Source: Candidatus Tenderia sp.
GTDB taxonomy: Bacteria > Pseudomonadota > Gammaproteobacteria > Tenderiales > Tenderiaceae
NCBI GenBank assembly: GCA_031416075.1
Contig: JANOSY010000064.1
Coordinates: 1-10,038 of the forward strand
DNA: 10,038 nucleotides
Reading direction: 5' to 3'
Both the position numbers and the translations under genes were made by a program. The notes under the pieces were generated by a model. The model had not been told where the DNA came from and ran no database searches. It saw only the letters and a program-made list of their open reading frames with translations. This document shows positions 1 through 10,038 of this stretch, piece after piece. The stretch's first letter is position 1, and each line of letters starts with the position of its first letter.

Positions 1-137
1 ATGGAACCCAGCGTGCGTATTGCATTATGGCCCGAGCTAATCGTATAGCTCACGTAGAGGCCGGATAGATACACGCAATCTTTACCCTGAGGACAAAAGT
101 TCAATCTTCTCCTTGCAAAACGGGAGGAGTCCATAGA
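1..137 (+). mobile_element. Right end of an IS1111-group (IS110 family) insertion sequence; transposase lies upstream, outside the window
   Basis: GGGAGGAGTCCAT at 122-134 is the reverse complement of ATGGACTCCTCCC, which I recognise as the sub-terminal inverted repeat type of IS1383/ISPa11-like elements. It is followed by 3 nt (AGA) and then TA. An outward-facing -35 box TTGCAA (113-118) sits just inside the repeat, as expected for the circle-junction promoter. The preceding sequence is non-coding and structured. Confidence 0.75.
11..77 (+). ncRNA. Putative donor-binding stem-loop of an IS1111 bridge/seek RNA (3' part only)
   Basis: Nested pairings: TGCGT 14-18 with ACGCA 73-77; GGCC 29-32 with GGCC 59-62; GAGCTA 34-39 with TAGCTC 46-51. 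These enclose an internal loop (19-28 / 63-72). The right loop strand carries ATAGATACA (65-73), identical to the element end junction at 133-141. Confidence 0.6.
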
Positions 138-164
138 TACATGGCTGAAAGTCTGGTGATAGTG

Positions 165-202
165 AAAATAAATGGGGGCGCATGATGCGCCCCCATTTTT
201 TT
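165..202. terminator. Bidirectional intrinsic terminator
   Basis: Perfect 13-bp stem AAATGGGGGCGCA (170-182) / TGCGCCCCCATTT (186-198) with a 3-nt loop, an A-tract on the left and a T-tract on the right. It lies about 20 nt past the stop of the minus-strand 223-501 gene. Confidence 0.85.
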
Positions 203-222
203 GGTATCAGGCTGCGTTTGAA

Positions 223-501
223 TCAATCAAAATCAAACAGCTCGCCAAGAAACCCTTCGCGCTTTTTCTTTTTGCCATAGCCGTACCCGGCATCGTGGTG
301 GCCGTGCGAGCTGTAGGGCTGTGGCCGTGTTTGTGGTGCCTGTTGCGTAGGTTGCACCGCCGTCGGCGTGGCGCGGTCGATGATCTTGTCGAGCTCACCG
401 CGATCGAGCCAGACACCACGGCAGGTGGGACAGTAATCGATCTCGATACCGTTGCGTTCCGACATGACCAGATCAGCTTCGCGACATACGGGGCATTTCA
501 T
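223..501 (-). CDS. zf-TFIIB-like zinc-ribbon domain protein (92 aa)
   Basis: MKCPVC...IEIDYCPTCRGVWLDRGELDKII (two CxxC pairs plus WLDxGEL) and C-terminal KKKKREGFLGELFDF, typical of this family. RBS AGGAG lies upstream of the ATG. Confidence 0.9.
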   Translation of the reverse strand: MKCPVCREADLVMSERNGIEIDYCPTCRGVWLDRGELDKIIDRATPTAVQPTQQAPQTRPQPYSSHGHHDAGYGYGKKKKREGFLGELFDFD

Positions 502-718
502 GTGTTATCTCCTGTTTGTGAATTGTGTAGACCAGTGACTGTGACAGCGCCAGAGCCATGTGGTTCGCTGACGCAGGATAAACCACGGCGGGTCTTCTCA
601 CGCGGTTGCTGGCGGCGGGCGGCAAGCCGGGATGGAGCGTGGTTAAATCTGGGAGCGCAGTCCCGCAGATCCTGCGATGTTTTATCCGGGCTGTCGGCGT
701 CGGGGGGGCGATGGATGA

Positions 719-1513
719 TCACCAGAAATACCACAGCACCACCATCCCAAAGACAATGCGGTACCAGGCAAACAGGGTGAAGTTATGGTTGGAGACGTAG
801 GCCAGGAACAGCTTTACGACAATCAATGCGGTGACAAAGGCGGTGATAAAACCGACGGCAAATACCGGGATGTCTCCGGCGTGCAGCAAGTCACGGCTTT
901 TGTAGAGGTCGTAGATGGTGGCCGCAAACATGGTGGGCATGGCGAGGAAGAAGGAGAACTCGGTGGCGGCTGTGCGTGACAGGCCGCAGAGCAGGCCGCC
1001 CATGATGGTGGCGCCGGAGCGTGATACGCCGGGGAACATGGCGAGGGTCTGGGCAAAGCCGACCTTGAGTGCATCGATGGGTTTGATCTCATCAATCGTC
1101 AGGATGCGCGGTGTATGTACCTTGCGTTCGATGACCAGGATCAGCACCCCACCCACGATCAGCGCCATGGCGACGGTGATGGGGTTGAAGAGATAGGTCT
1201 TGATGGCGCTGTGAAATATCAATCCGAGCACCACGGCAGGCATGAAGGCGATGAGGATGTTGATGGCAAAGCGGCGTTCCTGGGGTTGGTTGATGCCGCT
1301 GATCACCTTCCAGAGACGTTTATGGTAGAACCAGGCAACACCAAGCACGGCCCCCAGTTGGATGAAGATCTCGAAGGTATTGGCGCCGTCTCCGGTGAAG
1401 TTCATCAGATCACCAAAGATGATCAGGTGCCCGGTGGAGGAGACTGGCAGAAACTCGGTCAACCCTTCGATAACGCCGAGTAAAAATGCCTTGAGTAATA
1501 ATAGGATATCCAT
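719..1513 (-). CDS. uppP: Undecaprenyl-diphosphate phosphatase (BacA/UppP)
   Basis: Signature motifs GVIEGLTEFLPVSSTGH and PGVSRSGATI, plus AATEFSFFLA; multi-pass hydrophobic protein of 264 aa. Confidence 0.98.
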   Translation of the reverse strand: MDILLLLKAFLLGVIEGLTEFLPVSSTGHLIIFGDLMNFTGDGANTFEIFIQLGAVLGVAWFYHKRLWKVISGINQPQERRFAINILIAFMPAVVLGLIFHSAIKTYLFNPITVAMALIVGGVLILVIERKVHTPRILTIDEIKPIDALKVGFAQTLAMFPGVSRSGATIMGGLLCGLSRTAATEFSFFLAMPTMFAATIYDLYKSRDLLHAGDIPVFAVGFITAFVTALIVVKLFLAYVSNHNFTLFAWYRIVFGMVVLWYFW

Positions 1514-1549
1514 GCAGCTTCAGTCCGGTTGTATTTGCAAAAAGGGGCC

Positions 1550-1578
1550 ATTGTAGCCGCTGGGGCCAAAAAAGGCAT
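1550..1578 (-). promoter_or_regulatory. Possible sigma70 promoter for uppP
   Basis: Minus-strand TACAAT (-10, 1550-1555) with a weak ATGCCT (-35, 1573-1578) at 17-bp spacing. Confidence 0.3.
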
Positions 1579-1623
1579 TGTGTGGAGATGGTGATGGTCT
1601 GGTTTGAGCGGGGGTGACAAAAT

Positions 1624-1652
1624 TTGACACCCCTTGCCCCTTTCTCTAAGCT
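1624..1652 (+). promoter_or_regulatory. Sigma70 promoter of the metZ operon
   Basis: TTGACA (1624-1629), 17 bp, TAAGCT (1647-1652). The predicted start near 1659 is directly 5' of the riboswitch aptamer. Confidence 0.75.
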
Positions 1653-1660
1653 GTGGCCAA

Positions 1661-1715
1661 CAGCGCCGATTTGTACTCAAATTGCGGGCGCGTAAAAAAT
1701 ACCGCTAAAGAGAGG
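1661..1715 (+). ncRNA. SAM-II riboswitch aptamer
   Basis: GCGCC-GATTT-G...TTGC-GGGCGC-...AAAT-ACC-GCTAAA-GAGAGG follows the SAM-II H-type pseudoknot pattern: P1 GCGCC/GGCGC, GATTT pairing with AAAT, TTGC loop, and 3' GCTAAA. It sits upstream of a methionine biosynthesis gene. Confidence 0.88.
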
Positions 1716-1716
1716 C

Positions 1717-1751
1717 AAGCCTGCTTTAGCGAATGCTTGGCGGGTTTTTTT
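1717..1751 (+). terminator. Intrinsic terminator forming the riboswitch expression platform
   Basis: AAGCCTGC (1717-1724) pairs with GCGGGTTT (1740-1747), including G-U pairs, with a T7 tract at 1745-1751, 39 nt before the metZ start. Confidence 0.7.
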
Positions 1752-1790
1752 GTGCCCGCAGAAAGTTAGGGTTTTGAAAGGAGGGGTTTT

Positions 1791-2978
1791 ATGAATGAAT
1801 TTGATGAGTACGGCTTTGACACCCTGGCGGTGCGCGCCGGGCAGCATCGTACGGGTGAGGGTGAGCAGTCGGAGCCGATTTTTCCCACCTCCAGTTACGT
1901 TTTTGGCAGCGCGGCGGAGGCAGCGGCACGTTTTTCCGGCGCTGTCCCCGGTAACATCTATTCACGTTTTACCAACCCTACGGTCCGCACCTTTGAGCAG
2001 CGTCTGGCGGCGCTTGAGGGGGGGGAGTGTTGTGTCGCCACCTCATCGGGTATGTCGGCCATCCTCTCTACTTTTATGGCGCTGCTGAAGGCGGGTGACC
2101 ACATTGTGTCGTCACGTGCCATCTTTGGTACCACCACGGTGCTGTGTACCAATTACATGGCCAAGTTTGGCGTCGAGACGAGCTTTGTTGATCTGGTGAA
2201 TGTGGATGCCTGGCGCGCGGCAATCAAACCCAATACCAAACTGCTGTTTCTGGAGACGCCCTCCAATCCGTTGACCGAGATTGCCGACATTCGCGCCTTG
2301 GCCGATCTCGCCCATCAACACGGTGCGTTGCTGGTGGTGGATAACTGCTTCTGCACCCCGGCGCTGCAACGGCCACTGGAATTGGGTGCCGATATCATCA
2401 TCCACTCCGCGACCAAGTATCTTGATGGTCAGGGGCGCTGTATCGGTGGTGCCGTGGTGGGCCGAGCGGATGTGGTGGGTAAGGATGTGTATGGCTTTTT
2501 GCGTACCGCTGGCCCGACCATGAGTCCCTTCAACGCATGGGTCTTTCTTAAGGGGCTGGAGACGTTGCGTCTGAGGATGGAGGCCCACTGCAAAAATGCC
2601 CAGCAGCTGGCGGAATGGCTGGCGGCGCAGCCGCAGGTGACACGGGTCAACTATCCCGGCCTCAAGTCCCACCCGCAACATGCGCTGGCGGCAAGCCAGC
2701 AAAAGGGGTTTGGCGGCGTGCTCTCGTTTGAGGTGCAGGGTGGCAAGGAGGCGGCGTGGCGGTTGATCGACGCCACACGGCTGATCTCTATCACCGCCAA
2801 TCTGGGGGATACCAAATCGACCATCACCCATCCCGCCACCACCACCCATGGCCGCCTGACACCGGAGCAGCGCACCAATGCCGGTATCAGCGATGGTTTG
2901 ATCCGTATTGCGGTGGGGCTGGAGGATATCGAGGATCTCAAGGGCGACCTAGTGCGCGGCCTCGTAATGGCGGGGTGA
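1791..2978 (+). CDS. metZ: O-succinylhomoserine sulfhydrylase (Cys/Met metabolism PLP enzyme)
   Basis: YSRFTNPTV, SSGMSAI, ETPSNP, DNCFCTP, PLP-lysine motif HSATKYLDGQGR, ITANLGDTKSTITHPATTTHGRL; RBS GGAGG; SAM riboswitch leader. Confidence 0.96.
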   Translation: MNEFDEYGFDTLAVRAGQHRTGEGEQSEPIFPTSSYVFGSAAEAAARFSGAVPGNIYSRFTNPTVRTFEQRLAALEGGECCVATSSGMSAILSTFMALLKAGDHIVSSRAIFGTTTVLCTNYMAKFGVETSFVDLVNVDAWRAAIKPNTKLLFLETPSNPLTEIADIRALADLAHQHGALLVVDNCFCTPALQRPLELGADIIIHSATKYLDGQGRCIGGAVVGRADVVGKDVYGFLRTAGPTMSPFNAWVFLKGLETLRLRMEAHCKNAQQLAEWLAAQPQVTRVNYPGLKSHPQHALAASQQKGFGGVLSFEVQGGKEAAWRLIDATRLISITANLGDTKSTITHPATTTHGRLTPEQRTNAGISDGLIRIAVGLEDIEDLKGDLVRGLVMAG

Positions 2979-2981
2979 TAG

Positions 2982-4388
2982 ATGGCCGCCCACGGCAACC
3001 TCAGAAAAAAAGCCCAGCGTCTGCTTAAAGAGCGGCGCTGGACCACAGCACTGGAGTTATATGGCCAGCTTTGCCAGCTGCAGCCCCAGAATCATGATGC
3101 CTGGCTGGAGCTTGGACTGTTGCAGCAGCGTCTCGATGATCCTGTTCGTGCCGAACATTCGTTACGTCGTGCCCTTGAACTGCGTCCCAACCTGCTGCCT
3201 GCCTACGGGGCATTGGCAACGTTGCTGTTTGGGCGGGGACGGCTGCACGAGGCGGAGACATTCTGCCGTACTGCCCTGGTGCTGGCACCGCAGACGGTAG
3301 GGATGGCGGCTCTGCTGCAGCAGGTGTTGCAGCAGCAGGCGATGGTGACAACCGCGAAGCGCCATGAAGGGCAGCAGCACTACCCGGAGGCGCTGACGGT
3401 GCTGGAAGAGGCGCTGTCATTGAACCCCCTGGCGTATGAGGCGCGCTGGCGTTATGCCGAACTGTTGCTGCTGCTGGGCCGCCTTCAGGAGGGGTGGGCC
3501 GCCTATGAGTGGCGTCTGCAGGACCCGCGCTGGATAGCGGCCATGGGACGCTGTGAATTTGCTGCGCCACGCTGGCAGGGGGAGCCACTCGCCGGAAAAA
3601 CTATCCTTATCTACGCCGAACAGGGGTTTGGCGATACGCTGCAGTTCAGCCGTTATCTGCCACTGCTGCATCAACGCGGTGCCAGGATTATCTTTTATTG
3701 TGATCGGGAACTGTTGCCGCTCTACCAGAACAGGCCGTACCTGATGCGGGTTGAGGCCAAAAGTTATCACAAGGCGCTGACGGAAAGAGTGGATTACCAC
3801 GCCGCACTGATGAGTCTGCCGCACGGGTGTGGCACTACGCTGGAGAATATTCCAACAGCGCCTGCGCCACTCTATATAAGTGATAAACAGAGACACCAGT
3901 GGCAGTCATACATGGCGGGGGATGTTTTTAAGGTTGGGCTGGTCTGGGCCGGACGCCCGGTACACGCCAACAATCAACGTCGCTCCTGTGGTCTGGCTGC
4001 GCTTGCGCCCTTGGCAGAGGTGGAGGGTGTACAGTTTTATAGTTTGCAGAAAGGGGAGGCGGCCCTGGATTCCGTGTCACAACCCGCGGGCATGGTGATT
4101 GATGACCTGGCACCGCAGCTCAACGATTTTTCTGATACCGCGGCGGCCATTGAACAGCTTGATCTCGTCATCGCTGTTGATACCGCCGTTGCCCACCTTG
4201 CCGGTAGCCTCGGCAAACCGGTCTGGACACTCAACTATTTCCCGCCCGAGTGGCGCTGGCTGCTGGGGCGTGATGATTCACCCTGGTATCCCACCATGCG
4301 GCTGTTCCGGCAGTCTGCCACTGATGCCGACTGGTCGCCAGTGGTTGAACGGGTGGCGCAGGCGTTGGCCCATGTCGCAGCGCGGTAA
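2982..4388 (+). CDS. TPR-repeat protein with C-terminal GT-B (GT9-like) glycosyltransferase domain, paralog A
   Basis: N-terminal TPR helices, then GWxxYEWR, EQGFGD, LMSLP, VGLVWAG, YSLQKG, DLVIAVDTAVAHLAG and WRWLLGRDDSPWYPTMRLFRQ. Confidence 0.9.
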   Translation: MAAHGNLRKKAQRLLKERRWTTALELYGQLCQLQPQNHDAWLELGLLQQRLDDPVRAEHSLRRALELRPNLLPAYGALATLLFGRGRLHEAETFCRTALVLAPQTVGMAALLQQVLQQQAMVTTAKRHEGQQHYPEALTVLEEALSLNPLAYEARWRYAELLLLLGRLQEGWAAYEWRLQDPRWIAAMGRCEFAAPRWQGEPLAGKTILIYAEQGFGDTLQFSRYLPLLHQRGARIIFYCDRELLPLYQNRPYLMRVEAKSYHKALTERVDYHAALMSLPHGCGTTLENIPTAPAPLYISDKQRHQWQSYMAGDVFKVGLVWAGRPVHANNQRRSCGLAALAPLAEVEGVQFYSLQKGEAALDSVSQPAGMVIDDLAPQLNDFSDTAAAIEQLDLVIAVDTAVAHLAGSLGKPVWTLNYFPPEWRWLLGRDDSPWYPTMRLFRQSATDADWSPVVERVAQALAHVAAR

Positions 4389-5598
4389 CCTTCTTACTAT
4401 CTACCACGCCGCGCTTCAGGCGGTGCATGGCCGCACAGCTGTCCGTCAGGCATTGCAACGCCATCACATGAGTGGTGGTATCTGTGTCATCGCCATTGGC
4501 AAGGCCGCCAGCGCCATGTTTCTGGGTGCCCACGACGTCTTGAACGGACAGATTGTGGATTCACTGGTGATCACCAAACAGGGGAATGGAGACGCTGAAG
4601 TGACCGCCAAGGGTGCATGTCTGATGGAAGCTGCCCACCCAACACCGGATCAACGCAGTCTTGATGCCGGTCAGACGTTACTCAACTTTATTCACGCCGC
4701 TCCTGCCGATGCGCAGTTGCTATTCCTCATCTCCGGTGGTGCGTCGAGTCTGGTGGAGCTGTTGCCAGCGGGGGCCTCACTCGCCGACCTGCAACGAGTC
4801 AATCAATGGTTGCTTGGCAGTGGTCTCGATATTCATGCCATGAACCAGATTCGCAAATCGCTCTCCCTCATCAAAGGGGGGCGTTTGGCGCGTGAGCTTG
4901 GCGGGCGTAAAACCCTGGCACTGTTGATCTCCGACGTGCCCGGCGACGATCCCGCCACCATCGGTTCCGGCCTGCTGGTAGCTGATCGTTTTATCGAGGC
5001 CCAAGCGGCTGTTGAGTTACCACCATGGATCACCGCACTGATGGCCAGGGGGGTGACGGCACCGGTGTGTAATGACGCCATCTTCAAAAACATCGTGTTT
5101 GATATCATCGCCAACCTTGACGACGCCAAACAGGCCGCCGCCGCATCTGGCCGAAAACTGGGGTATGACGTTTACCAGCACGCGGGCACTCTGGAAGGGG
5201 AGGTGGCGCAGGTGGCCAGGGCGTTGGTGGCAGAGTTATTGAACGCGCCGGTTGGTCTGCATGTATGGGGTGGTGAGACCACCCTGCAACTGCCACCGCA
5301 GCCGGGGCGTGGTGGTCGCAACCAGCACCTTGCCCTTGTCGCTGCTGTTGAATTATGCGGCTGCGACAATCTGCTTTTTCTTGCTGCCGCCAGTGATGGC
5401 AGCGATGGCCCGACCAGTGATGCCGGTGGGCTGGTGGATGGGGCAACGGTAGCGCGTGGTAGTGTTGCCGGGCTTGATGTGAATGAGGCGTTGGCCCGTG
5501 CCGATGCAGGCACCTTTCTGGCGGCCAGCGGCGATCTGGTCAGTACCGGACCGACCGGCACAAATGTGATGGATCTGATGTTGGGGATGAAGTGGTGA
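4372..5598 (+). CDS. Glycerate 2-kinase / TtuD-like protein (DUF4147 + MOFRL domains), about 408 aa
   Basis: IGKAA, HPTPD, LISGGASSL, RKSLSLIKGGRLA, SDVPGDD..IGSG, GGETT, GRGGRNQ, SDGSDG, TGPTGTNVMD. The start is placed at ATG 4372 (17-nt overlap with the upstream gene) because 4099-4371 overlaps the conserved end of paralog A. Confidence 0.92.
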   Translation: MSQRGNLLTIYHAALQAVHGRTAVRQALQRHHMSGGICVIAIGKAASAMFLGAHDVLNGQIVDSLVITKQGNGDAEVTAKGACLMEAAHPTPDQRSLDAGQTLLNFIHAAPADAQLLFLISGGASSLVELLPAGASLADLQRVNQWLLGSGLDIHAMNQIRKSLSLIKGGRLARELGGRKTLALLISDVPGDDPATIGSGLLVADRFIEAQAAVELPPWITALMARGVTAPVCNDAIFKNIVFDIIANLDDAKQAAAASGRKLGYDVYQHAGTLEGEVAQVARALVAELLNAPVGLHVWGGETTLQLPPQPGRGGRNQHLALVAAVELCGCDNLLFLAAASDGSDGPTSDAGGLVDGATVARGSVAGLDVNEALARADAGTFLAASGDLVSTGPTGTNVMDLMLGMKW

Positions 5599-7292
5599 TC
5601 AAAAAACCGAATGCCATCGTCAAGGCCAAGCAGAAGGCGTCGCAGCTATTGCAGGCCAACAGGCTTGAGGATGCCTGGATTGCCTTTGAGCGGGTCAGCC
5701 GCCAGACCCCTGGCGATTATGAAACGTGGCTGAACCTTGGGGCCATCGCCGCGATGCTGGGGTGGTTTGAGCGTGCCGAGACGGCATTGCGGCGCGCGCT
5801 CATGCTCAGGCCCGACCTGTCGCAGGCGAATGTGAACATGGCGCGCCTGTTGATGATGAAAAACCGTCTGGAAGAGGCGCTGCCCTACCTGCGTCACTAT
5901 GTGAAATTGCAGCCCGGCGATCTGGAGGGGTACTACCATCTTGGCCAGCTGCTGGAATCGCTGGGTGATAATGGAGGGGCCGAGCAGGTTTATCGAGAGG
6001 CGCTGTTGCTGGAGCAGAGCGATGCCGCGATTCACATTGGCCTGGGGCGGGTGCTGCGTGCGCGGGGGGCGCATGATGAGGCGCGGGCGCAGTGCGAGCA
6101 GGCCTTTCAGCTGCAACCCAATGCGGCGCTTGCCTACTTTGAACTTGGCAACATCAACAGGGAGCAGCACCGTTTTGACGAGGCGTTGCGCTGCTATCAG
6201 CAGCTGATTGCGCTGGCACCGCAGGAGCGCGAGAACTATCTGCTCAATCTCGCCCTGCTGAATGTCGCTCTGCAACATTACGACGCAGCGCTGGAGCATT
6301 ATCAGCAGCTCTTCTAGTTCAATCCAGACTCTGTCAGCGGCCACTGGAACTACGCGTTGTTGTTGCTGTTGCTGGGGCGTTACAGGGAGGGCTGGAATGA
6401 GTATGAGTGGCGCTGGCGCACCCCCACCTGGACGCGGCAGATGTGGGGTAAATTTTCACAGCCGCTCTGGAATGGTGAGCCGCTGACAGGGTGCACGATC
6501 CTGGTTTATGCCGAGCAGGGGCTGGGTGATGCAATTCAGTTTGGCCGCCTTCTGCAACCGCTGATGCAGCAGGCCGGGCAAGTGATCTTCCACAGCCCGC
6601 CGGAGCTGCTGGGGTTGTTCAAACATATTCCCGGACTCCAGGTGGAGCCGCGCGATTACGAGCGGGCGCGGCAGCACGTCTTCGATTTTCATCTGCCGCT
6701 GATGAGCCTCGCCAGACTCATGGATGTGACCGTGGAAAATATCGTTGCCCCCGGACGCTATCTGCAGCCCGCTCCGGAGCGGGTGGCCGCATGGCGCGAG
6801 CGCATCACCGCCACTGGCTTCCGGGTTGGGCTGGTGTGGGGCGGCTCAACCAATAATCTAGCCAACCGCATCCGTTCGATGAAGCTGTCGGAGTGCGAGC
6901 CGCTGGCAGCCATTCCCGGCGTCACGCTCTACAGCCTGCAAAAGGATGGCGATGCCGAAGAGCTGAAACCTTTTGTTGAACGCTGGGGCATGGTGGACCT
7001 TGCCCCCGAGCTGCGTGACTTCGAGGATACCGCCGCAGCCATCGATAACCTTGATCTTGTCATCAGTGTCGATACCGCTGTGGCCCACATGGCCGGCACT
7101 CTGGAGCGACCGGTCTGGACGCTCGTCTACCAGCCGACGGAGTGGCGCTGGCTGCTGGGGCGCGATGACAGCCCGTGGTATCCGACGATGCGCCTCTTCC
7201 GTCAGACTGTCGAAGCGCCGTGTTGGCAGCCGGTCATCGAACATGTTGCCGTGGCGCTGCGCGAGTTAATCGCAGCAAAGCGCAAGGAGTGA
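5592..7292 (+). pseudogene. TPR/GT9-like glycosyltransferase paralog B, interrupted by a single in-frame TAG at 6315-6317
   Basis: ORFs 5592-6317 (TPR repeats) and 6357-7292 (GT domain) share a frame. Read-through gives HYQQLF*FNPDSVSGHWNYALLLLLLGRYREGWNEYEWR, which aligns with paralog A LEEALSLNPLAYEARWRYAELLLLLGRLQEGWAAYEWR. The start may be GTG 5592 or 5595 (GTGA overlap with the kinase stop). Confidence 0.85.
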
Positions 7293-7445: not shown

Positions 7446-7481
7446 CCCCAAAGTGGGGTGTTTGATTGCCCCACTTTGGGG
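7446..7481. repeat. Perfect 13-bp inverted repeat just upstream of the first core site
   Basis: CCCCAAAGTGGGG (7446-7458) / CCCCACTTTGGGG (7469-7481), 10-nt spacer. Confidence 0.85.
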
Positions 7482-7498
7482 TCCATTACCTGTTAGGC
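7478..7498 (+). other. attI-like recombination site (R box GTTAGGC at 7492-7498)
   Basis: The GTTRRRY core is exactly complementary to the R'' box GCCTAAC (8280-8286) that closes cassette 1. No attC-type R''/L'' arm is visible upstream, so it reads as the array head. Confidence 0.55.
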
Positions 7499-7514
7499 GA
7501 TTATGGAGGAGCTT

Positions 7515-8255
7515 ATGACCGAGTACTCCGAGCAGATTCAAAAAACATATCGCGTCATGGAAACCGAGGAATTACTCGGTCGTATTAAAGCAGGAACACT
7601 CACAGAGGAAGCACATGCGCTTGCGCTTGGAGAGATTAAGGCACGTGGCATATCTACCGCTGAGCTGTCAATCAATCCGTCTCCCCCTCTCGCAAATGAC
7701 AAGCATCCTGAACATGAGGCTTTGTGGGAGCTAACCCGTTGTATGAATCAAATTACTACCAATCAGACGCTTGATATTCACGGGACGATAAACAGTTACA
7801 CGAAGACCGGTTGGAAGGTCGGCGGCGCCGTCGCCTTCCTGGGCCTGGGAATTCACCTTTGGGATGGTGGGGGTGTAGCTTTCCCTGTCATGTCGTTTAT
7901 CATTGGTGTGTTGTTACCTGCCAACAAGCATACTTACCTGGACTTTACTGGCCGTCAGATCGTTACCGTAAAGCACTATGCCTGGTTTGAAACATCCAAA
8001 CTCTGCTACCCTTTGACAGACTTTTGCAACATCGTGGTTCGGTATCTCTGTCACACCGATAGCGAAGGGGGGGACATATACACGGGCAGCGTCGGTCTTA
8101 AGCCTGTGGATGGGAGATCTGTGTTATGGGTGAAGGGCTTTCCCACAACCGAAGGTAAAATCCCTCGGACTGCTTACAAGTTTGCGAGGAAGTTGCAAGA
8201 GATGACGGGATTGCCGGGCGCACCCGAGGGCGAATTCAAAAGCGAGACGCAGTGA
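7515..8255 (+). CDS. Cassette 1: hypothetical membrane protein (about 246 aa)
   Basis: RBS GGAGGAG 7505-7511 favours ATG 7515 over 7503. Short helical N-terminal module, two hydrophobic segments (VGGAVAFLGLGIHLW, GVAFPVMSFIIGVLL), and a beta-rich C-terminal part. Confidence 0.8.
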   Translation: MTEYSEQIQKTYRVMETEELLGRIKAGTLTEEAHALALGEIKARGISTAELSINPSPPLANDKHPEHEALWELTRCMNQITTNQTLDIHGTINSYTKTGWKVGGAVAFLGLGIHLWDGGGVAFPVMSFIIGVLLPANKHTYLDFTGRQIVTVKHYAWFETSKLCYPLTDFCNIVVRYLCHTDSEGGDIYTGSVGLKPVDGRSVLWVKGFPTTEGKIPRTAYKFARKLQEMTGLPGAPEGEFKSETQ

Positions 8256-8279: not shown

Positions 8280-8401
8280 GCCTAACATATCGTTCAAGAA
8301 GGACACGCCTTGTCGAGGCATTTTAAGAGCATGGGTTTCGTCACGGGTGGCGCTTTGCTCCAGCTTCAGCGTTGGCGTGCCTCTTAACTCCAACGTTATG
8401 T
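8280..8401 (+). other. attC site 1 (122 bp)
   Basis: R'' GCCTAAC, 5 nt, L'' GTTCAAG (8292-8298) ... L' CTTAAC (8383-8388), 6 nt, R' GTTATGT (8395-8401). Internal pairings CACGCC/GGCGTG and GAGCA/TGCTC. Confidence 0.92.
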
Positions 8402-8426: not shown

Positions 8427-8987
8427 GTGTTTAGAGTGTGTATTGTTGTTATTACTATGGCGCTACTGTCTGGGTGCAACAATGGTGGCAGTGATGGCTC
8501 GTCGAACCCGGTCCGGTCTACCTCTGCGACGCTTACCTGTCCCAAACCCCAAGAAGGAATTGTGGGGTGTTGGGTAACGGAAAAATGTGGCCGAATGACC
8601 GGAAACGATGGAAAGACAATTGATTATTGGGGTAGTCATAGAGTGTTGTTCGCTCAAGATGGGAAAATCGAGTTCTTGAGTCAACAATTCAACAACTCCT
8701 CATGTGCTGGGCAACCTAATGGGGCCCCAGTGAACGAAATGGTTGTAGTGTCCTATGTCGAAGCACAACCAGAACAAGATGTAAGTGGTGTCGAGGCAAG
8801 CAAACTAATAGTTACTTCTACGTTTCAAGATAAACAGCCATTTGACACAGGCGTTCTCTACTTTATATCGAATAATTACCGTCTTTGTTTGTCTAGCGCT
8901 TTCAAAATTACGCATGATGCTGTTTCAATGACGGAGTCATCCAGCTCCCCCATCGATTTTGAGTCATGCTTGGTTCGCGTCGATTAA
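8427..8987 (+). CDS. Cassette 2: hypothetical cysteine-rich lipoprotein (186 aa)
   Basis: GTG start after AAGGAG; signal peptide with lipobox LSGC (Cys17); Gly/Ser linker; six further cysteines; stop abuts attC R''. Confidence 0.85.
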   Translation: MFRVCIVVITMALLSGCNNGGSDGSSNPVRSTSATLTCPKPQEGIVGCWVTEKCGRMTGNDGKTIDYWGSHRVLFAQDGKIEFLSQQFNNSSCAGQPNGAPVNEMVVVSYVEAQPEQDVSGVEASKLIVTSTFQDKQPFDTGVLYFISNNYRLCLSSAFKITHDAVSMTESSSSPIDFESCLVRVD

Positions 8988-9062
8988 ACATAACCACAGG
9001 TTCAAGTGGACCGCCATCCGCGGCGCTTCGCTTGCGCACGGCGTCCACTTAATTCGTTAGGG
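8988..9062 (+). other. attC site 2 (75 bp; shortened L'-R' spacer)
   Basis: R'' ACATAAC, 5 nt, L'' GTTCAAG (9000-9006); stem AAGTGGAC/GTCCACTT; L' CTTAAT (9048-9053), only 2 nt, R' GTTAGGG (9056-9062). Confidence 0.85.
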
Positions 9063-9068
9063 GGCTCC

Positions 9069-9356
9069 TTGATCGCCATCCTCACAATTAGCCCAACACT
9101 CATTGCGCTCACGCTAATGTGGGGGTTTGCACTTGCTGGGCGGCCAATTAGCCTTGAACAGATCGGCTGGTTACTGACATATGCACAAATCGTCTTTCTT
9201 GCAGCCGGTGTCGCTGCCACAATGCTTGCAAAACGCTCTGCACAACCAATGGCTGAGTGGCGTATTACTACAAATAAATGGGTAGGGAGAGCAATGGCAT
9301 TGTTTGGTTTGTTCTATGCAATCGCTTTCGCACTGGTTGCATACCATGCCCCCTAA
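9069..9356 (+). CDS. Cassette 3: small hypothetical membrane protein (about 95 aa, about 3 TM segments)
   Basis: The track ORF start at 9006 lies inside attC2, so the likely start is TTG 9069 after AGGGGG (or ATG 9117). The TAA stop lies within R'' CCCTAAC, as is common for cassettes. Confidence 0.7.
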   Translation: MIAILTISPTLIALTLMWGFALAGRPISLEQIGWLLTYAQIVFLAAGVAATMLAKRSAQPMAEWRITTNKWVGRAMALFGLFYAIAFALVAYHAP

Positions 9357-9405
9357 CACTGCGGTCAAGCGGAACGCGCTAAAGCGCGCCCCTTACCTTA
9401 AACGT
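9351..9405 (+). other. attC site 3, interrupted in R' (GT|T) by the group II intron
   Basis: R'' CCCTAAC, 5 nt, L'' GGTCAAG (9363-9369); CGCGCT-AA-AGCGCG hairpin tip; L' CTTACC (9392-9397), 6 nt, GT (9404-9405), then intron sequence. Confidence 0.88.
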
Positions 9406-10038
9406 GTGTGTCGGGCATGGCACGTAACTATGTCGGTGAAAGTCCGGCAGCCAGGTCTCTCGTAGAGCCGAAGGCTAGGGAAACGGCAAGGGCGTCATCG
9501 CGAGGGGCCGGGTCTGAAAGAAGCTGAACCCAAAGCAGCGGGGCGATGAACAAAAACCGGATAGTAGGCGTGGTGCATTCAGGGCGAGCGGGCACGTGAC
9601 CGCGAAGCCCTCCATCTACGATTTGTTGGATGCACTTTGTAAATTCGGCGTTCGCGCTGCGAAAGTAACGTGTCTTACCCCGGGAGATCTCCTCTGTGCG
9701 TACGCTGTAAGGCCTGCGCTGAATGTCGGGCAACCGGCATTGATCGCCAAGGAGAGGTCAGCAGAAGGCATAGTAGGGGGATGGCACCCCTGAAGGCCGG
9801 AACGATGAATGACAAAGGCGCTGAATGAAGAGGAGCGAAATCGCATCTGACAACCTGCAATCGCAGGCTGTGGCATCGCCACAGGATGAATTCGTCACTG
9901 GAAAAGACAGTCAACCCGCGTCAATTCAACCCCAAGCGATACTGGAACGCGTGTTAGAACGCGCCAACCTGAAACGCGCATTAAAACGAGTACGCCAAAA
10001 CAAAGGCGCGCCGGGCATTGACGGCATGACCGTTGATG
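9406..10038 (+). mobile_element. Group IIC intron, 5' part (ribozyme domains I-III and start of IV); truncated by window end
   Basis: 5' end GTGTGTCGGGCATGG (GUGYG consensus) and class C landmarks GGTGAAAGTCC, GCAAGGG, TCTGAAAGAAGC, CTTACCCCGGGAGATCT and GTCAGCAGAAGGCATAGTAG...GAAGGCCGGAAC, followed by an RT ORF. Confidence 0.93.
9825..10038 (+). CDS. ltrA: Group II intron reverse transcriptase/maturase, N-terminal fragment (partial; absent from ORF track)
   Basis: The frame from ATG 9825 reads MKRSEIASDNLQSQAVASPQDEFVTGKDSQPASIQPQAILERVLERANLKRALKRVRQNKGAPGIDGMTVD, the RT0 motif. The exact start codon is uncertain. Confidence 0.92.
   Translation, partial: MKRSEIASDNLQSQAVASPQDEFVTGKDSQPASIQPQAILERVLERANLKRALKRVRQNKGAPGIDGMTVD

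What the first reader, a model, noticed from the sequence alone, without database searches (positions are those of the whole stretch)
9351..9610. Group IIC intron inserted in the attC core site on the top strand, mirror image of typical IIC-attC introns
Seen: the intron begins at 9406, right after AAACGT, splitting R' as GT|(T), and is co-oriented with the cassettes. The domain I loop at the EBS1 position (stem GCGG 9588-9591 / CCGC 9600-9603) displays ACGT (9594-9597), complementary to the exon end ACGT (9402-9405). Known: described IIC-attC introns such as S.ma.I2 insert in the bottom strand at the inverse core (TTGT/T), antisense to the cassettes. I recall one report of a core-site-targeting intron in Enterobacter cloacae, so this is rare rather than certainly unprecedented. 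Inference: a lineage with EBS1 retuned to the top-strand hairpin. It would be transcribed from the array promoter, restore attC in RNA on splicing, and block IntI recombination at this site in DNA.
Basis: partly seen in the sequence, partly recalled or inferred. Interest (0 to 1): 0.8.

Follow-up and report, generated by a model that had tools for sequence, protein, structure and literature searches.

The report
Sense-strand attC-targeting group IIC intron
A mobile self-splicing intron sits inside the recombination site of a gene cassette, pointing the same way as the cassettes; this is a real but already reported arrangement that turns out to be common in environmental bacteria.

Summary
A group II intron starts at 9406 on the + strand (Rfam D1-D4 models, E 3.6e-23). 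It follows ...AAACGT, the end of a 55-nt attC hairpin (9351-9405) that closes the third of three + strand cassettes.

The contig ends inside the intron, so the window's own 3' exon was not seen. Relatives fill the gap. Of the 80 loci encoding the closest reverse transcriptases, 61 of 62 readable 5' junctions end in CGT, and 53 of 54 loci with both junctions restore GT|T. Bulge asymmetry, flanking gene orientation and two class 1 integron controls place the intron on the attC top strand.

In reverse-transcriptase trees this group is its own clade. It is separate from the canonical antisense IIC-attC introns (TTGT|T, loop ACAA), and terminator-targeting IIC introns branch between the two.

Clade members also sit in clinical class 1 integrons, including the Shewanella algae plasmid whose sense-oriented intron is already in print. 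A top-strand Enterobacter cloacae intron was published in 2012.

Verdict: real, a new member of a known kind, and commoner than the literature suggests. The functional claims remain untested, and this genome has no integron integrase.

The parts
7492..7498 (+). GTTAGGC, the first core-site-like heptamer, where the cassette run begins. It is preceded by a perfect 14-bp hairpin (7446-7482) and by ordinary chromosomal genes.
   Evidence: Sequence read, fold. No R'' partner was seen, so its status as attC, attI-like or secondary site is open. Upstream genes have Pfam matches to BacA, Cys_Met_Meta_PP, TPR, DUF4147/MOFRL and Glyco_transf_9.
7503..8255 (+). Cassette 1 open reading frame (250 aa, no Pfam family)
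8280..8401 (+). attC 1: R'' GCCTAAC 8280-8286, R' GTTATGT 8395-8401. It reads ...CCAACGT|TATGT, so it is an unoccupied ACGT|T target.
   Evidence: Sequence read
8427..8987 (+). Cassette 2 open reading frame (186 aa, no Pfam family)
8988..9061 (+). attC 2: R'' ACATAAC 8988-8994, R' GTTAGGG 9055-9061
   Evidence: Sequence read, fold
9070..9356 (+). Cassette 3 open reading frame. It is listed from GTG 9006, but a start inside the cassette is more likely. Its stop codon TAA lies inside R''. No Pfam family.
   Evidence: The start codon is inferred.
9351..9405 (+). attC 3, all but the last five bases, which forms the intron's 5' exon. R'' CCCTAAC 9351-9357, spacer 9358-9362, L'' arm 9363-9379 with bulged C bases, loop 9380-9383, L' arm 9384-9397, spacer TTAAAC 9398-9403, GT of R' 9404-9405. 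IBS1 = ACGT 9402-9405.
   Evidence: Folds. A paralogous intron-free attC in the same genome (C3) reads ...TTTAACGTTAGAT.
9406..10038 (+). Group IIC intron, 5' 633 nt, cut off by the contig end. Begins GTGTG at 9406.
   Evidence: Rfam. It is 84% identical over all 633 nt to the full-length intron in L010, and 76% to L004.
9588..9603 (+). EBS1 stem-loop: stem GCGG/CCGC, loop GCACGTGA, EBS1 ACGT 9594-9597
   Evidence: The loop covaries with the exon end across IIC lineages.
9825..10037 (+). First 71 codons of the intron-encoded reverse transcriptase. The frame is open at the contig end.
   Evidence: The nucleotide alignment to the full-length relatives runs through this stretch. The L004 relative encodes a 444-aa protein with RVT_1 and GIIM only.

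Best explanation
This is a mobile bacterial group II intron of class C. It belongs to a lineage that homes to the top strand of integron attC sites. Shown: it sits after the attC hairpin, between GT and T of the R' core site, and points the same way as the cassettes. Inferred from how class C introns are known to work: the intron RNA recognises the folded single-stranded top strand through the upstream stem-loop. A 3-4 nt EBS1 (ACGU, 9594-9597) pairs with the exon end (A)CGU, and EBS3 pairs with the first base (U) of the 3' exon. The RNA then reverse-splices into the DNA and is copied by its own endonuclease-less reverse transcriptase, which starts at 9825. Because the intron is sense-oriented, any transcript reading through the cassettes would contain it. 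Splicing would rejoin the cassette RNA and yield the intron RNA-protein particle needed for further movement. In DNA the insertion separates the last five bases of R' from the rest of attC, which should disable that site for an integron integrase. The host array is a cluster of attC sites without an integrase, so here the intron is simply a resident of a decaying or orphan array.
For: Intron identity: Rfam hits. The window's 633 nt align end to end with full-length introns in relatives. The L004 relative's protein has RVT_1 and GIIM only, with no endonuclease domain.

Target rule: of the 80 loci encoding the closest reverse transcriptases, 62 hold a 5' junction. Of those, 61 end in CGT (53 ACGT, 5 GCGT, 3 TCGT). 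68 of 69 readable 3' exons start with T. 53 of 54 loci with both junctions give GT|T.

attC rather than terminator: 40 of 50 sites fold into a hairpin of at least 10 bp closed by AAC/GTT.

Top strand, three lines of evidence. (1) Single-base bulges lie on the 5' arm in 33 of 40 sites, are equal in 5 and lie on the 3' arm in 2. The bulged letters are A 31, C 25, G 5 and T 2. From recalled integron literature, A and C are the complements of the bottom strand's extrahelical T and G. The window's site has two C bulges on the 5' arm and none on the 3' arm. (2) A same-strand ORF ends 35-175 nt upstream in 45 of 51 loci. A same-strand ORF starts within 250 nt downstream in 43 of 49. An opposite-strand ORF ends at the site in only 5 of 49. 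(3) Controls behave as expected. The aadA1 and aacA4 attC sites of class 1 integrons carry clade members co-oriented with annotated cassettes. The antisense intron beside blaIMP-4 gives the opposite bulge and ORF pattern.

EBS1: the loop reads GCACGTGA here and GCACAAGA in the TTGT|T introns. It reads GCATGTGA with exon CAT, GCAAGTGA with CTT and GCCAGAAA with TCTG.

Empty sites: a paralogous attC in the same genome reads ...AACGTTAGAT. Metagenome contigs match the window up to 9405 and then continue TAGGC... or TGCCC....

Mobility: near-identical intron 5' ends follow other exons ending in CGT (two of them ACGT) in two further metagenomes. A second, 74% identical, ORF-less copy in this genome lies in another attC...CTCCACGT|...CCCGAT|TGGGC.
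Against: The window's own 3' junction is missing. Contig C64 ends at 10038, and no GIIM domain is assembled anywhere in the genome.

Strict GTTRRRY is met in only 27 of 54 relatives.

10 of 50 sites failed my hairpin test. Some look like branched attC sites, but L010, L027 and L033 look like non-attC sites.

6 of 51 loci lack the upstream same-strand ORF.

There is no compensating change inside the clade. Exons TCGT (3 loci) keep the loop ACGT, and L106 has loop GCGCGTGA with exon ACGT. The EBS1 evidence is therefore covariation between lineages only.

EBS3 was not located. Splicing, transcription and mobility were not observed, and no RNA run was available.
Confidence: 0.85

Rival explanations
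1. It is an ordinary IIC-attC intron of the S.ma.I2 or Kl.pn.I type, inserted in the bottom strand, and the array actually runs on the - strand.
For: attC sites are imperfect palindromes, so both strands read RYYYAAC...GTTRRRY. The intron is class C and sits in an attC.
Against: All three cassette ORFs and their attC order run on the + strand, and the stop codon of cassette 3 lies inside R''. The bulges lie on the 5' arm, as in the aadA1 top-strand control and opposite to the blaIMP-4 antisense control. The exon end is ACGT, not TTGT, and the loop is ACGT, not ACAA. The reverse transcriptase of the L004 relative is only 47% identical to that of the antisense intron. The two groups are separate clades with 100/98 and 100/99 support.
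Confidence: 0.03
2. It is a terminator-targeting class C intron that landed by chance behind a hairpin that happens to be an attC. There is no attC specificity.
For: Class C introns mostly insert after intrinsic terminators (passages in PMC4424553). In the tree the clade's nearest neighbours are terminator-type introns. A few clade members (L010, L027, L033) sit at sites that do not look like attC.
Against: 61 of 62 junctions end in CGT, 53 of 54 restore GT|T, and 40 of 50 have an AAC/GTT-closed hairpin with one-sided bulges and no T-run. The terminator-type relatives instead show GC stems followed by T-runs.
Confidence: 0.05
3. The junction at 9405/9406 is an assembly chimera. A repeated attC end and a repeated intron start from different organisms in the metagenome were joined in this bin.
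For: Contigs overlap by 141 nt, which looks like a metagenome assembly. In the likely source run, word depth over the attC end and the intron is far above that of the unique cassette (2914 and 120-650 against 30.6). No Logan contig bridges the junction with 31 nt on both sides.
Against: The contig continues 633 nt past the junction. If it was built with 141-mers, as the overlaps suggest, words spanning unique cassette, attC and intron must have existed in the reads (inference). The same junction type recurs in 61 independent loci, including complete genomes and plasmids. Even if this copy were chimeric, the biology would stand.
Confidence: 0.05

Closest known systems
Group IIC intron of Enterobacter cloacae with an unusual target (Rodriguez-Martinez, Nordmann, Poirel, J Bacteriol 2012;194:150)
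   Same: [quoted passage not shown]
   Different: I could not read the paper itself (not held), so sequence identity with the window's clade is not verified. The window's copy is in a chromosomal integrase-less array of an uncultured gammaproteobacterium, not a clinical class 1 integron.
Sense-oriented introns in class 1 integrons on plasmids pKC-Na-R1 (Shewanella algae), pVb0267 (Vibrio parahaemolyticus) and pPp47 (Proteus penneri)
   Same: Same clade. Same junctions: aadA1 attC ...CTCAAGCGT|...CCCGAT|TAGAT and aacA4 attC ...TCAAACGT|...|TAGAT. Same loop GCACGTGA. PMC9229058 notes that the S. algae KC-Na-R1 intron is in the same orientation as the cassettes (passage read).
   Different: Their reverse transcriptases are about 65% identical to that of the L004 relative. 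The hosts are clinical or animal-associated plasmids with IntI1. That paper treats the case as an oddity among class C-attC introns, not as a separate lineage.
Group IIC-attC introns (S.ma.I2, E.c.I7, Kl.pn.I1, Kl.pn.I3)
   Same: Class C. They insert at GT|T behind an attC hairpin, with a short EBS1 in the same loop and IBS3 = T.
   Different: They insert in the bottom strand, antisense to the cassettes, at TTGT|T with loop ACAA (PMC3001079 and PMC7923331 passages; the pXH210_2 example). They form a separate reverse-transcriptase clade, with terminator-type introns branching between it and the window's clade.
Terminator-targeting class C introns (Robart, Seo and Zimmerly, PNAS 2007; seen only as a reference-list entry in PMC4424553)
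   Same: Same ribozyme class, an endonuclease-less protein, and a hairpin plus 3-4 nt IBS1 as the target. They are the nearest neighbours in the tree.
   Different: Their hairpins are GC stems followed by T-runs, without R''/R' boxes or one-sided bulges.

Membership tests
Group II intron, bacterial class C (IIC) | Ribozyme domains recognisable by covariance models | tested here: met
   RF02001 at 113 bits and RF01998 at 50.2 bits in the window. Domain V/VI (RF00029) is not in the window because the contig ends. It is present at the 3' end of the second copy (C82) and at the start of C75.
Group II intron, bacterial class C (IIC) | Intron-encoded protein with RT and maturase domains and no endonuclease domain | tested here: inconclusive
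   The window holds only 71 N-terminal codons. The 76% identical full-length relative encodes 444 aa with RVT_1 and GIIM only. No GIIM domain is assembled in this genome.
Group II intron, bacterial class C (IIC) | Insertion just behind a DNA stem-loop, with a short IBS1 and IBS3 and no IBS2 | tested here: met
   The hairpin at 9363-9397 is followed by IBS1 ACGT 9402-9405. EBS1 was assigned by loop homology and between-lineage covariation. EBS3 was not located.
Group II intron, bacterial class C (IIC) | Reverse transcriptase groups with class C proteins | tested here: met
   The relative's protein groups with the IIC-attC intron of pXH210_2 and with terminator-type introns, apart from three distant reverse transcriptases used as the root. 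No named class A, B, D, E or F references were available to me.
Group IIC-attC lineage (Leon and Roy; Quiroga and Centron) | Monophyletic reverse-transcriptase subset that contains S.ma.I2-type introns | tested here: not met
   The window's clade (30 rows, 100/98) and the TTGT clade (5 rows, 100/99) are separated by terminator-type rows. The two proteins are 47% identical. S.ma.I2 itself was not available, so the blaIMP-4-linked antisense intron stood in for it.
Group IIC-attC lineage (Leon and Roy; Quiroga and Centron) | Bottom-strand insertion, antisense to cassettes | tested here: not met
   plus the cassette order.
Group IIC-attC lineage (Leon and Roy; Quiroga and Centron) | Target consensus TTGT/T | tested here: not met
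   ACGT|T here. 61 of 62 relatives end in CGT.
Group IIC-attC lineage (Leon and Roy; Quiroga and Centron) | Insertion within an attC site | tested here: met
Top-strand attC intron of the E. cloacae type | Class C, outside the IIC-attC clade, co-oriented with cassettes, in the attC top strand | tested here: met
   All four features are shown above. The definition is taken from the PMC7923331 passage.
Top-strand attC intron of the E. cloacae type | Sequence relatedness to the published E. cloacae intron | not testable with these tools
   The paper and its accession number were not available. Relatedness is shown only to sense-oriented introns in other class 1 integron plasmids.
Integron (complete) | Integron integrase gene next to the array | tested here: not met
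   TIGR02249 has a best hit of 86.7 bits against a cut-off of 265 in the whole genome. The genes upstream of the array are housekeeping genes. The array is therefore an attC cluster without an integrase, at least as assembled.

The most novel reading that the evidence does not exclude
Top-strand attC homing is not a one-off oddity. It is the rule for a large environmental clade of class C introns spread across Beta- and Gammaproteobacteria, Nitrospira and others. On this reading the clade arose from terminator-targeting ancestors independently of the classical IIC-attC lineage. It reached the mirror-image site through a two-base difference in the same EBS1 loop (ACGU against ACAA), and it has spawned ORF-less derivatives that sit in attC sites and would have to be moved in trans. 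Sense orientation would let these introns use cassette transcription and splice out. That would make them far less disruptive residents of cassette arrays than the antisense lineage. It could also explain their presence in clinical class 1 integrons.
Probability: 0.55. Interest if true: 0.5.

Novelty: new member of a known kind. Interest (0 to 1): 0.4.

Why it matters
Integron cassette arrays are the main gene-capture system of Gram-negative bacteria, and elements that occupy attC sites change how cassettes are expressed and recombined. The textbook picture is a single attC-specific intron lineage that is always antisense. This window and its relatives show a second lineage, with separate ancestry in the trees built here, that takes the sense strand at the mirror-image position. 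It is widespread in environmental genomes and already present in class 1 integrons on resistance plasmids. It also offers a natural pair of closely comparable ribozymes (loop ACGU against ACAA) for asking how class C introns choose a DNA strand and hairpin. For this particular window the result is modest: a truncated copy in an integrase-less array.

Tried and rejected
Window's 3' exon. The contig ends at 10038. The only other intron pieces in the genome are C82 (an ORF-less copy) and the first 141 nt of C75, which equal the last 141 nt of C82. I could not tell whether C75 follows the window's intron, so I did not use it as the window's 3' exon, except as a stand-in for five bases in the folds.

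Same cassette without the intron. It was not found in 30 relatives searched with window:9062-9405. Only a paralogous attC in C3 turned up.

IntI. The recombinase beside the C82 copy looked like a possible integron integrase. It is a frameshifted Phage_integrase gene followed by Zn_Tnp_IS91 and Y2_Tnp, which makes it an IS91-family element.

Fixed-geometry scoring of top against bottom strand was too rigid and often picked the wrong R''. I replaced it with constrained folding. The first folding run preferred distant AAC triplets and was redone with energy per base.

RNA evidence. No RNA holder was listed for the stretch, so nothing can be said about expression or splicing. Parts of the stretch without contig cover in runs X3, X4 and X8 are not evidence.

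Plasmid hits H17, H35 and H38 were checked as possible antisense IIC-attC references. They are not in integrons, so they served only as terminator-type rows.

Papers not held: Rodriguez-Martinez 2012 and Leon and Roy 2009, RNA and J Bacteriol. Quiroga and Centron 2009 and Quiroga 2008 were seen only as references. The statement that a large top-strand clade is not in print rests on searches alone, and those unread papers may already cover part of it. Supplementary figures of PMC9229058 were not seen.

EBS3, the promoter of the array and replication-strand bias were not analysed.
Full report
WHAT IS IN THE WINDOW. The window is the whole of contig C64 of a 3.49-Mb, 95-contig genome. Positions 719-7292 carry ordinary chromosomal genes with Pfam matches to BacA, a Cys/Met PLP enzyme, TPR proteins, DUF4147/MOFRL and Glyco_transf_9; a 202-aa ORF at 172-780 has no Pfam match.

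From about 7492 there is a run of three short + strand ORFs without Pfam matches. Each is followed by an imperfect inverted repeat that begins RYYYAAC and ends GTTRRRY-like. These are attC 1 at 8280-8401, attC 2 at 8988-9061 and attC 3 from 9351.

Rfam finds two group II intron models on the + strand: RF02001 at 9494-9673 (113 bits, E 3.6e-23) and RF01998 at 9719-9798 (50.2 bits). An ORF opening at 9825 runs off the contig end. ACGT is at 9402-9405, GTGTG at 9406, stems GCGG 9588-9591 and CCGC 9600-9603, and loop ACGT 9594-9597. That loop is a terminal loop of the Rfam model helix.

WHERE THE INTRON STARTS. GTGTG can be read at 9404 or at 9406. Terminator-type relatives begin GTGYGCCNGGCATG directly after their exons, and the antisense intron begins GTACGCCCAGCATG. 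The window's GTGTGTCGGGCATGG aligns to these from 9406. Two further observations agree. A paralogous, intron-free attC in the same genome (C3, 84% identical over 49 nt) reads ...TTTAACGTTAGAT. In public metagenome contigs, sequences matching the window's attC stop matching exactly at 9405. They go on TAGGC... (two contigs in run X4) or TGCCC... (one contig in run X3).

THE MISSING 3' END. The contig ends inside the intron. No GIIM domain is assembled anywhere in the genome. Contigs overlap by 139-141 nt, and the smallest contig is 2061 nt, so a short repeat contig was probably dropped (inference). The window's own 3' exon was therefore not seen.

A second copy in the genome (C82) is 74% identical and about 790 nt long, with no ORF. 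It lies in another attC...GTCCAAC...CCCCTTAGCTCCACGT|GTGTGCC, and ends ...CCCGAT|TGGGC within its own contig.

RELATIVES.
- A search of 61 related genomes with the window's 633 intron bases found copies in 5, counting G000.
- Among them is a full-length 1860-nt intron (L004) with junctions ...GGTTAGCTCTACGT| and CCCGAT|TAGGC.
- There are also ORF-less copies of 734 nt (L005) and about 607 nt (L006).
- The L004 protein (P0001, 444 aa, RVT_1 plus GIIM, no endonuclease domain) was used to scan one genome per species. That scan found 266 relatives, of which the best 80 loci were kept, at 63-100% identity.
- The window's intron is closest to L010, at 84% over all 633 nt.

TARGET RULE. Of the 80 loci, 62 contain the 5' junction.
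- 53 end in ACGT, 5 in GCGT, 3 in TCGT and 1 in ACGC.
- 69 contain at least 5 nt of 3' exon, and 68 of these start with T.
- 54 have both junctions, and 53 of these restore GT|T. Strict GTTRRRY is met by 27 of the 54; the rest deviate at one or more of the last four positions.
- Of 50 sites with a CGT junction, both ends and enough flank, 40 fold into a hairpin of at least 10 bp closed by AAC/GTT.
- The 10 failures include sites that to my eye look like branched attC sites, and at least three sites (L010, L027, L033) that do not look like attC.

WHICH STRAND. Because attC sites are near-palindromes, strand had to be tested independently, and I used three tests.

(1) Bulges. In the 40 folded sites, single-base bulges lie mostly on the 5' arm in 33, equally in 5 and mostly on the 3' arm in 2. 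The bulged letters on the 5' arm are A 31, C 25, G 5 and T 2. From recalled integron literature, not from a call, the recombinogenic bottom strand carries extrahelical G and T on the R''-L'' arm. Their complements on the top strand would be C and A on the 5' arm. The window's site has two C bulges on the 5' arm and none on the 3' arm.

(2) Flanking genes. A same-strand ORF of at least 70 aa ends 35-175 nt before the site in 45 of 51 loci. A same-strand ORF starts within 250 nt after it in 43 of 49. An opposite-strand ORF ends within 45 nt after it in 5 of 49.

(3) Annotated controls. In pVb0267 and pKC-Na-R1 the intron follows aadA1 and precedes qacEdelta1, on their strand, with junction ...CTCAAGCGT|...|TAGAT. 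In pPp47 it follows aac(6')-Ib4. These sites give C and A bulges on the 5' arm. The intron beside blaIMP-4 in pXH210_2 is antisense, with junction ...CTTTGT|GTACG...CCCGAT|TAGAAA. Its bulges lie on the 3' arm, and the blaIMP-4 ORF ends at the site on the opposite strand. Papers call this arrangement blaIMP-4-Kl.pn.I3 (passages of PMC5725488; for the pXH210 paper I saw only the search listing).

The window's intron is therefore on the attC top strand, at the mirror-image position of the classical insertion.

EBS1. At the homologous loop, the clade reads GCACGTGA with exon (A)CGT. The antisense introns read GCACAAGA with exon TTGT (L100, L102, L124). Terminator-type introns read GCATGTGA with CAT (L098), GCAAGTGA with CTT (L099) and GCCAGAAA with TCTG (L125).

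Inside the clade there is no compensation. The three TCGT exons keep ACGT in the loop, and L106 has GCGCGTGA with ACGT. The C82 ORF-less copy has a 28-nt insertion in this loop. EBS3 was not located.

PHYLOGENY. I built a quick tree of 86 proteins and a careful tree of 45 (IQ-TREE, LG+G4), and they agree.
- The CGT-junction rows form one clade with support 100/98. It has 30 rows. In one search it has 76 rows: 61 with CGT, 14 with no readable junction and 1 with ACGC.
- The antisense group forms another clade with support 100/99. It has 5 rows. Three have a TTGT junction read. L103 and L104 are placed in the group by the tree only.
- Seven terminator-type rows branch on the path between the two (supports 100/93, 96/82, 96/79).

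On this topology the two attC-targeting groups cannot form an exclusive clade, wherever the root lies. Several caveats apply. The clade's rows were chosen by similarity to P0001. The outgroup is three unnamed distant reverse transcriptases. No named class references, S.ma.I2 or the E. cloacae sequence were available. I dropped rows with internal stops or fewer than 370 aligned residues, the duplicate L009, and three loci from unpublished genomes.

CONTEXT. No integron integrase was found in the genome. The best TIGR02249 hit is 86.7 bits against a cut-off of 265, and completeness is 99.98%. As assembled, the array is an attC cluster without an integrase. The recombinase next to the C82 copy belongs to an IS91-family element. 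attC 1 in the window reads ...CCAACGT|TATGT and is unoccupied.

OCCURRENCE. Twenty public runs from 13 studies (sediment, ice, drinking water and others) hold part of the stretch, all kept as contigs and none on record as RNA. In the four runs laid, near-identical intron 5' ends are preceded by other exons ending in CGT (two of them ACGT). Two of these exons look like attC arms. This fits a mobile element occupying several attC sites.

LITERATURE. Passages of PMC3001079 and PMC7923331 state that IIC-attC introns are a monophyletic subset, that they insert in the bottom strand at TTGT/T, and that they oppose cassette transcription. PMC7923331 also says that one E. cloacae integron carries a class C intron, 'not a IIC-attC', in the top strand and in the same orientation. 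It cites Rodriguez-Martinez et al. 2012, which I could not read. PMC9229058 notes a same-orientation intron in S. algae KC-Na-R1. That plasmid's intron is a member of the window's clade. None of my five literature searches turned up a description of a large top-strand clade. Several key papers were not available, so this absence is weakly founded.

VERDICT. The arrangement is already in print for at least one clinical case, so this is a new member of a known kind. What the session adds is that the kind is a distinct and well-populated clade with a fixed ACGT|T rule. Transcription, splicing, mobility and any effect on integrase recombination remain inferences.

Noticed in passing
L002 (= G000:C82:1491-3067) 789-1577; L005; L006: ORF-less derivatives of the intron (about 790, 734 and 607 nt) sit in attC sites with the same ACGT|...|T(R)GGC junctions where both ends were read. 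The C82 and L005 copies, from two genomes of one genus, share a 100% identical domain V/VI stretch. The C82 copy carries a 28-nt insertion in the EBS1 loop. If they move at all, they would have to be moved in trans.
   Followed up: partly
L095 (= G000:C82:1-3012) 135-2111, minus strand: An IS91-family element encodes a frameshifted tyrosine recombinase (246 + 75 aa) followed by Zn_Tnp_IS91 and Y2_Tnp ORFs. It lies about 110 nt from an attC, divergently oriented, so it mimics an intI-attI layout. Its first 139-141 nt recur at the starts of contigs C9, C11 and C39 and inside C73.
   Followed up: partly
window 1-146; L001 (= G000:C75:1-1636) 774-919: The first 146 nt of the window recur at 98-99% identity at the start of C65, at the end of C40 and, inverted, inside C75. 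In C75 the repeat follows the left arm (R''-L'') of a cassette's attC. It is possibly the end of a mobile element that also interrupts attC sites.
   Followed up: no
window 7446-7498: A perfect 14-bp hairpin (CCCCAAAGTGGGG...CCCCACTTTGGGG) followed by GTTAGGC marks the junction between housekeeping genes and the first cassette. No R'' partner and no integrase are present, so the nature of this array boundary is unexplained.
   Followed up: no
window 8395-8401: attC 1 ends ...CCAACGT|TATGT. It is a perfect ACGT|T target for the intron, yet it is empty. attC 2 ends ...ATTCGT|TAGGG.
   Followed up: no
L035, L082, L088: Length variants among full-length clade members. One locus has about 3.86 kb between the intron ends, so something may be inserted in the intron. 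Two others are shorter, at about 1.6-1.7 kb. One search also gave about 3.3 kb for L055, but neither of its intron ends matched the consensus, so that figure is unreliable.
   Followed up: no
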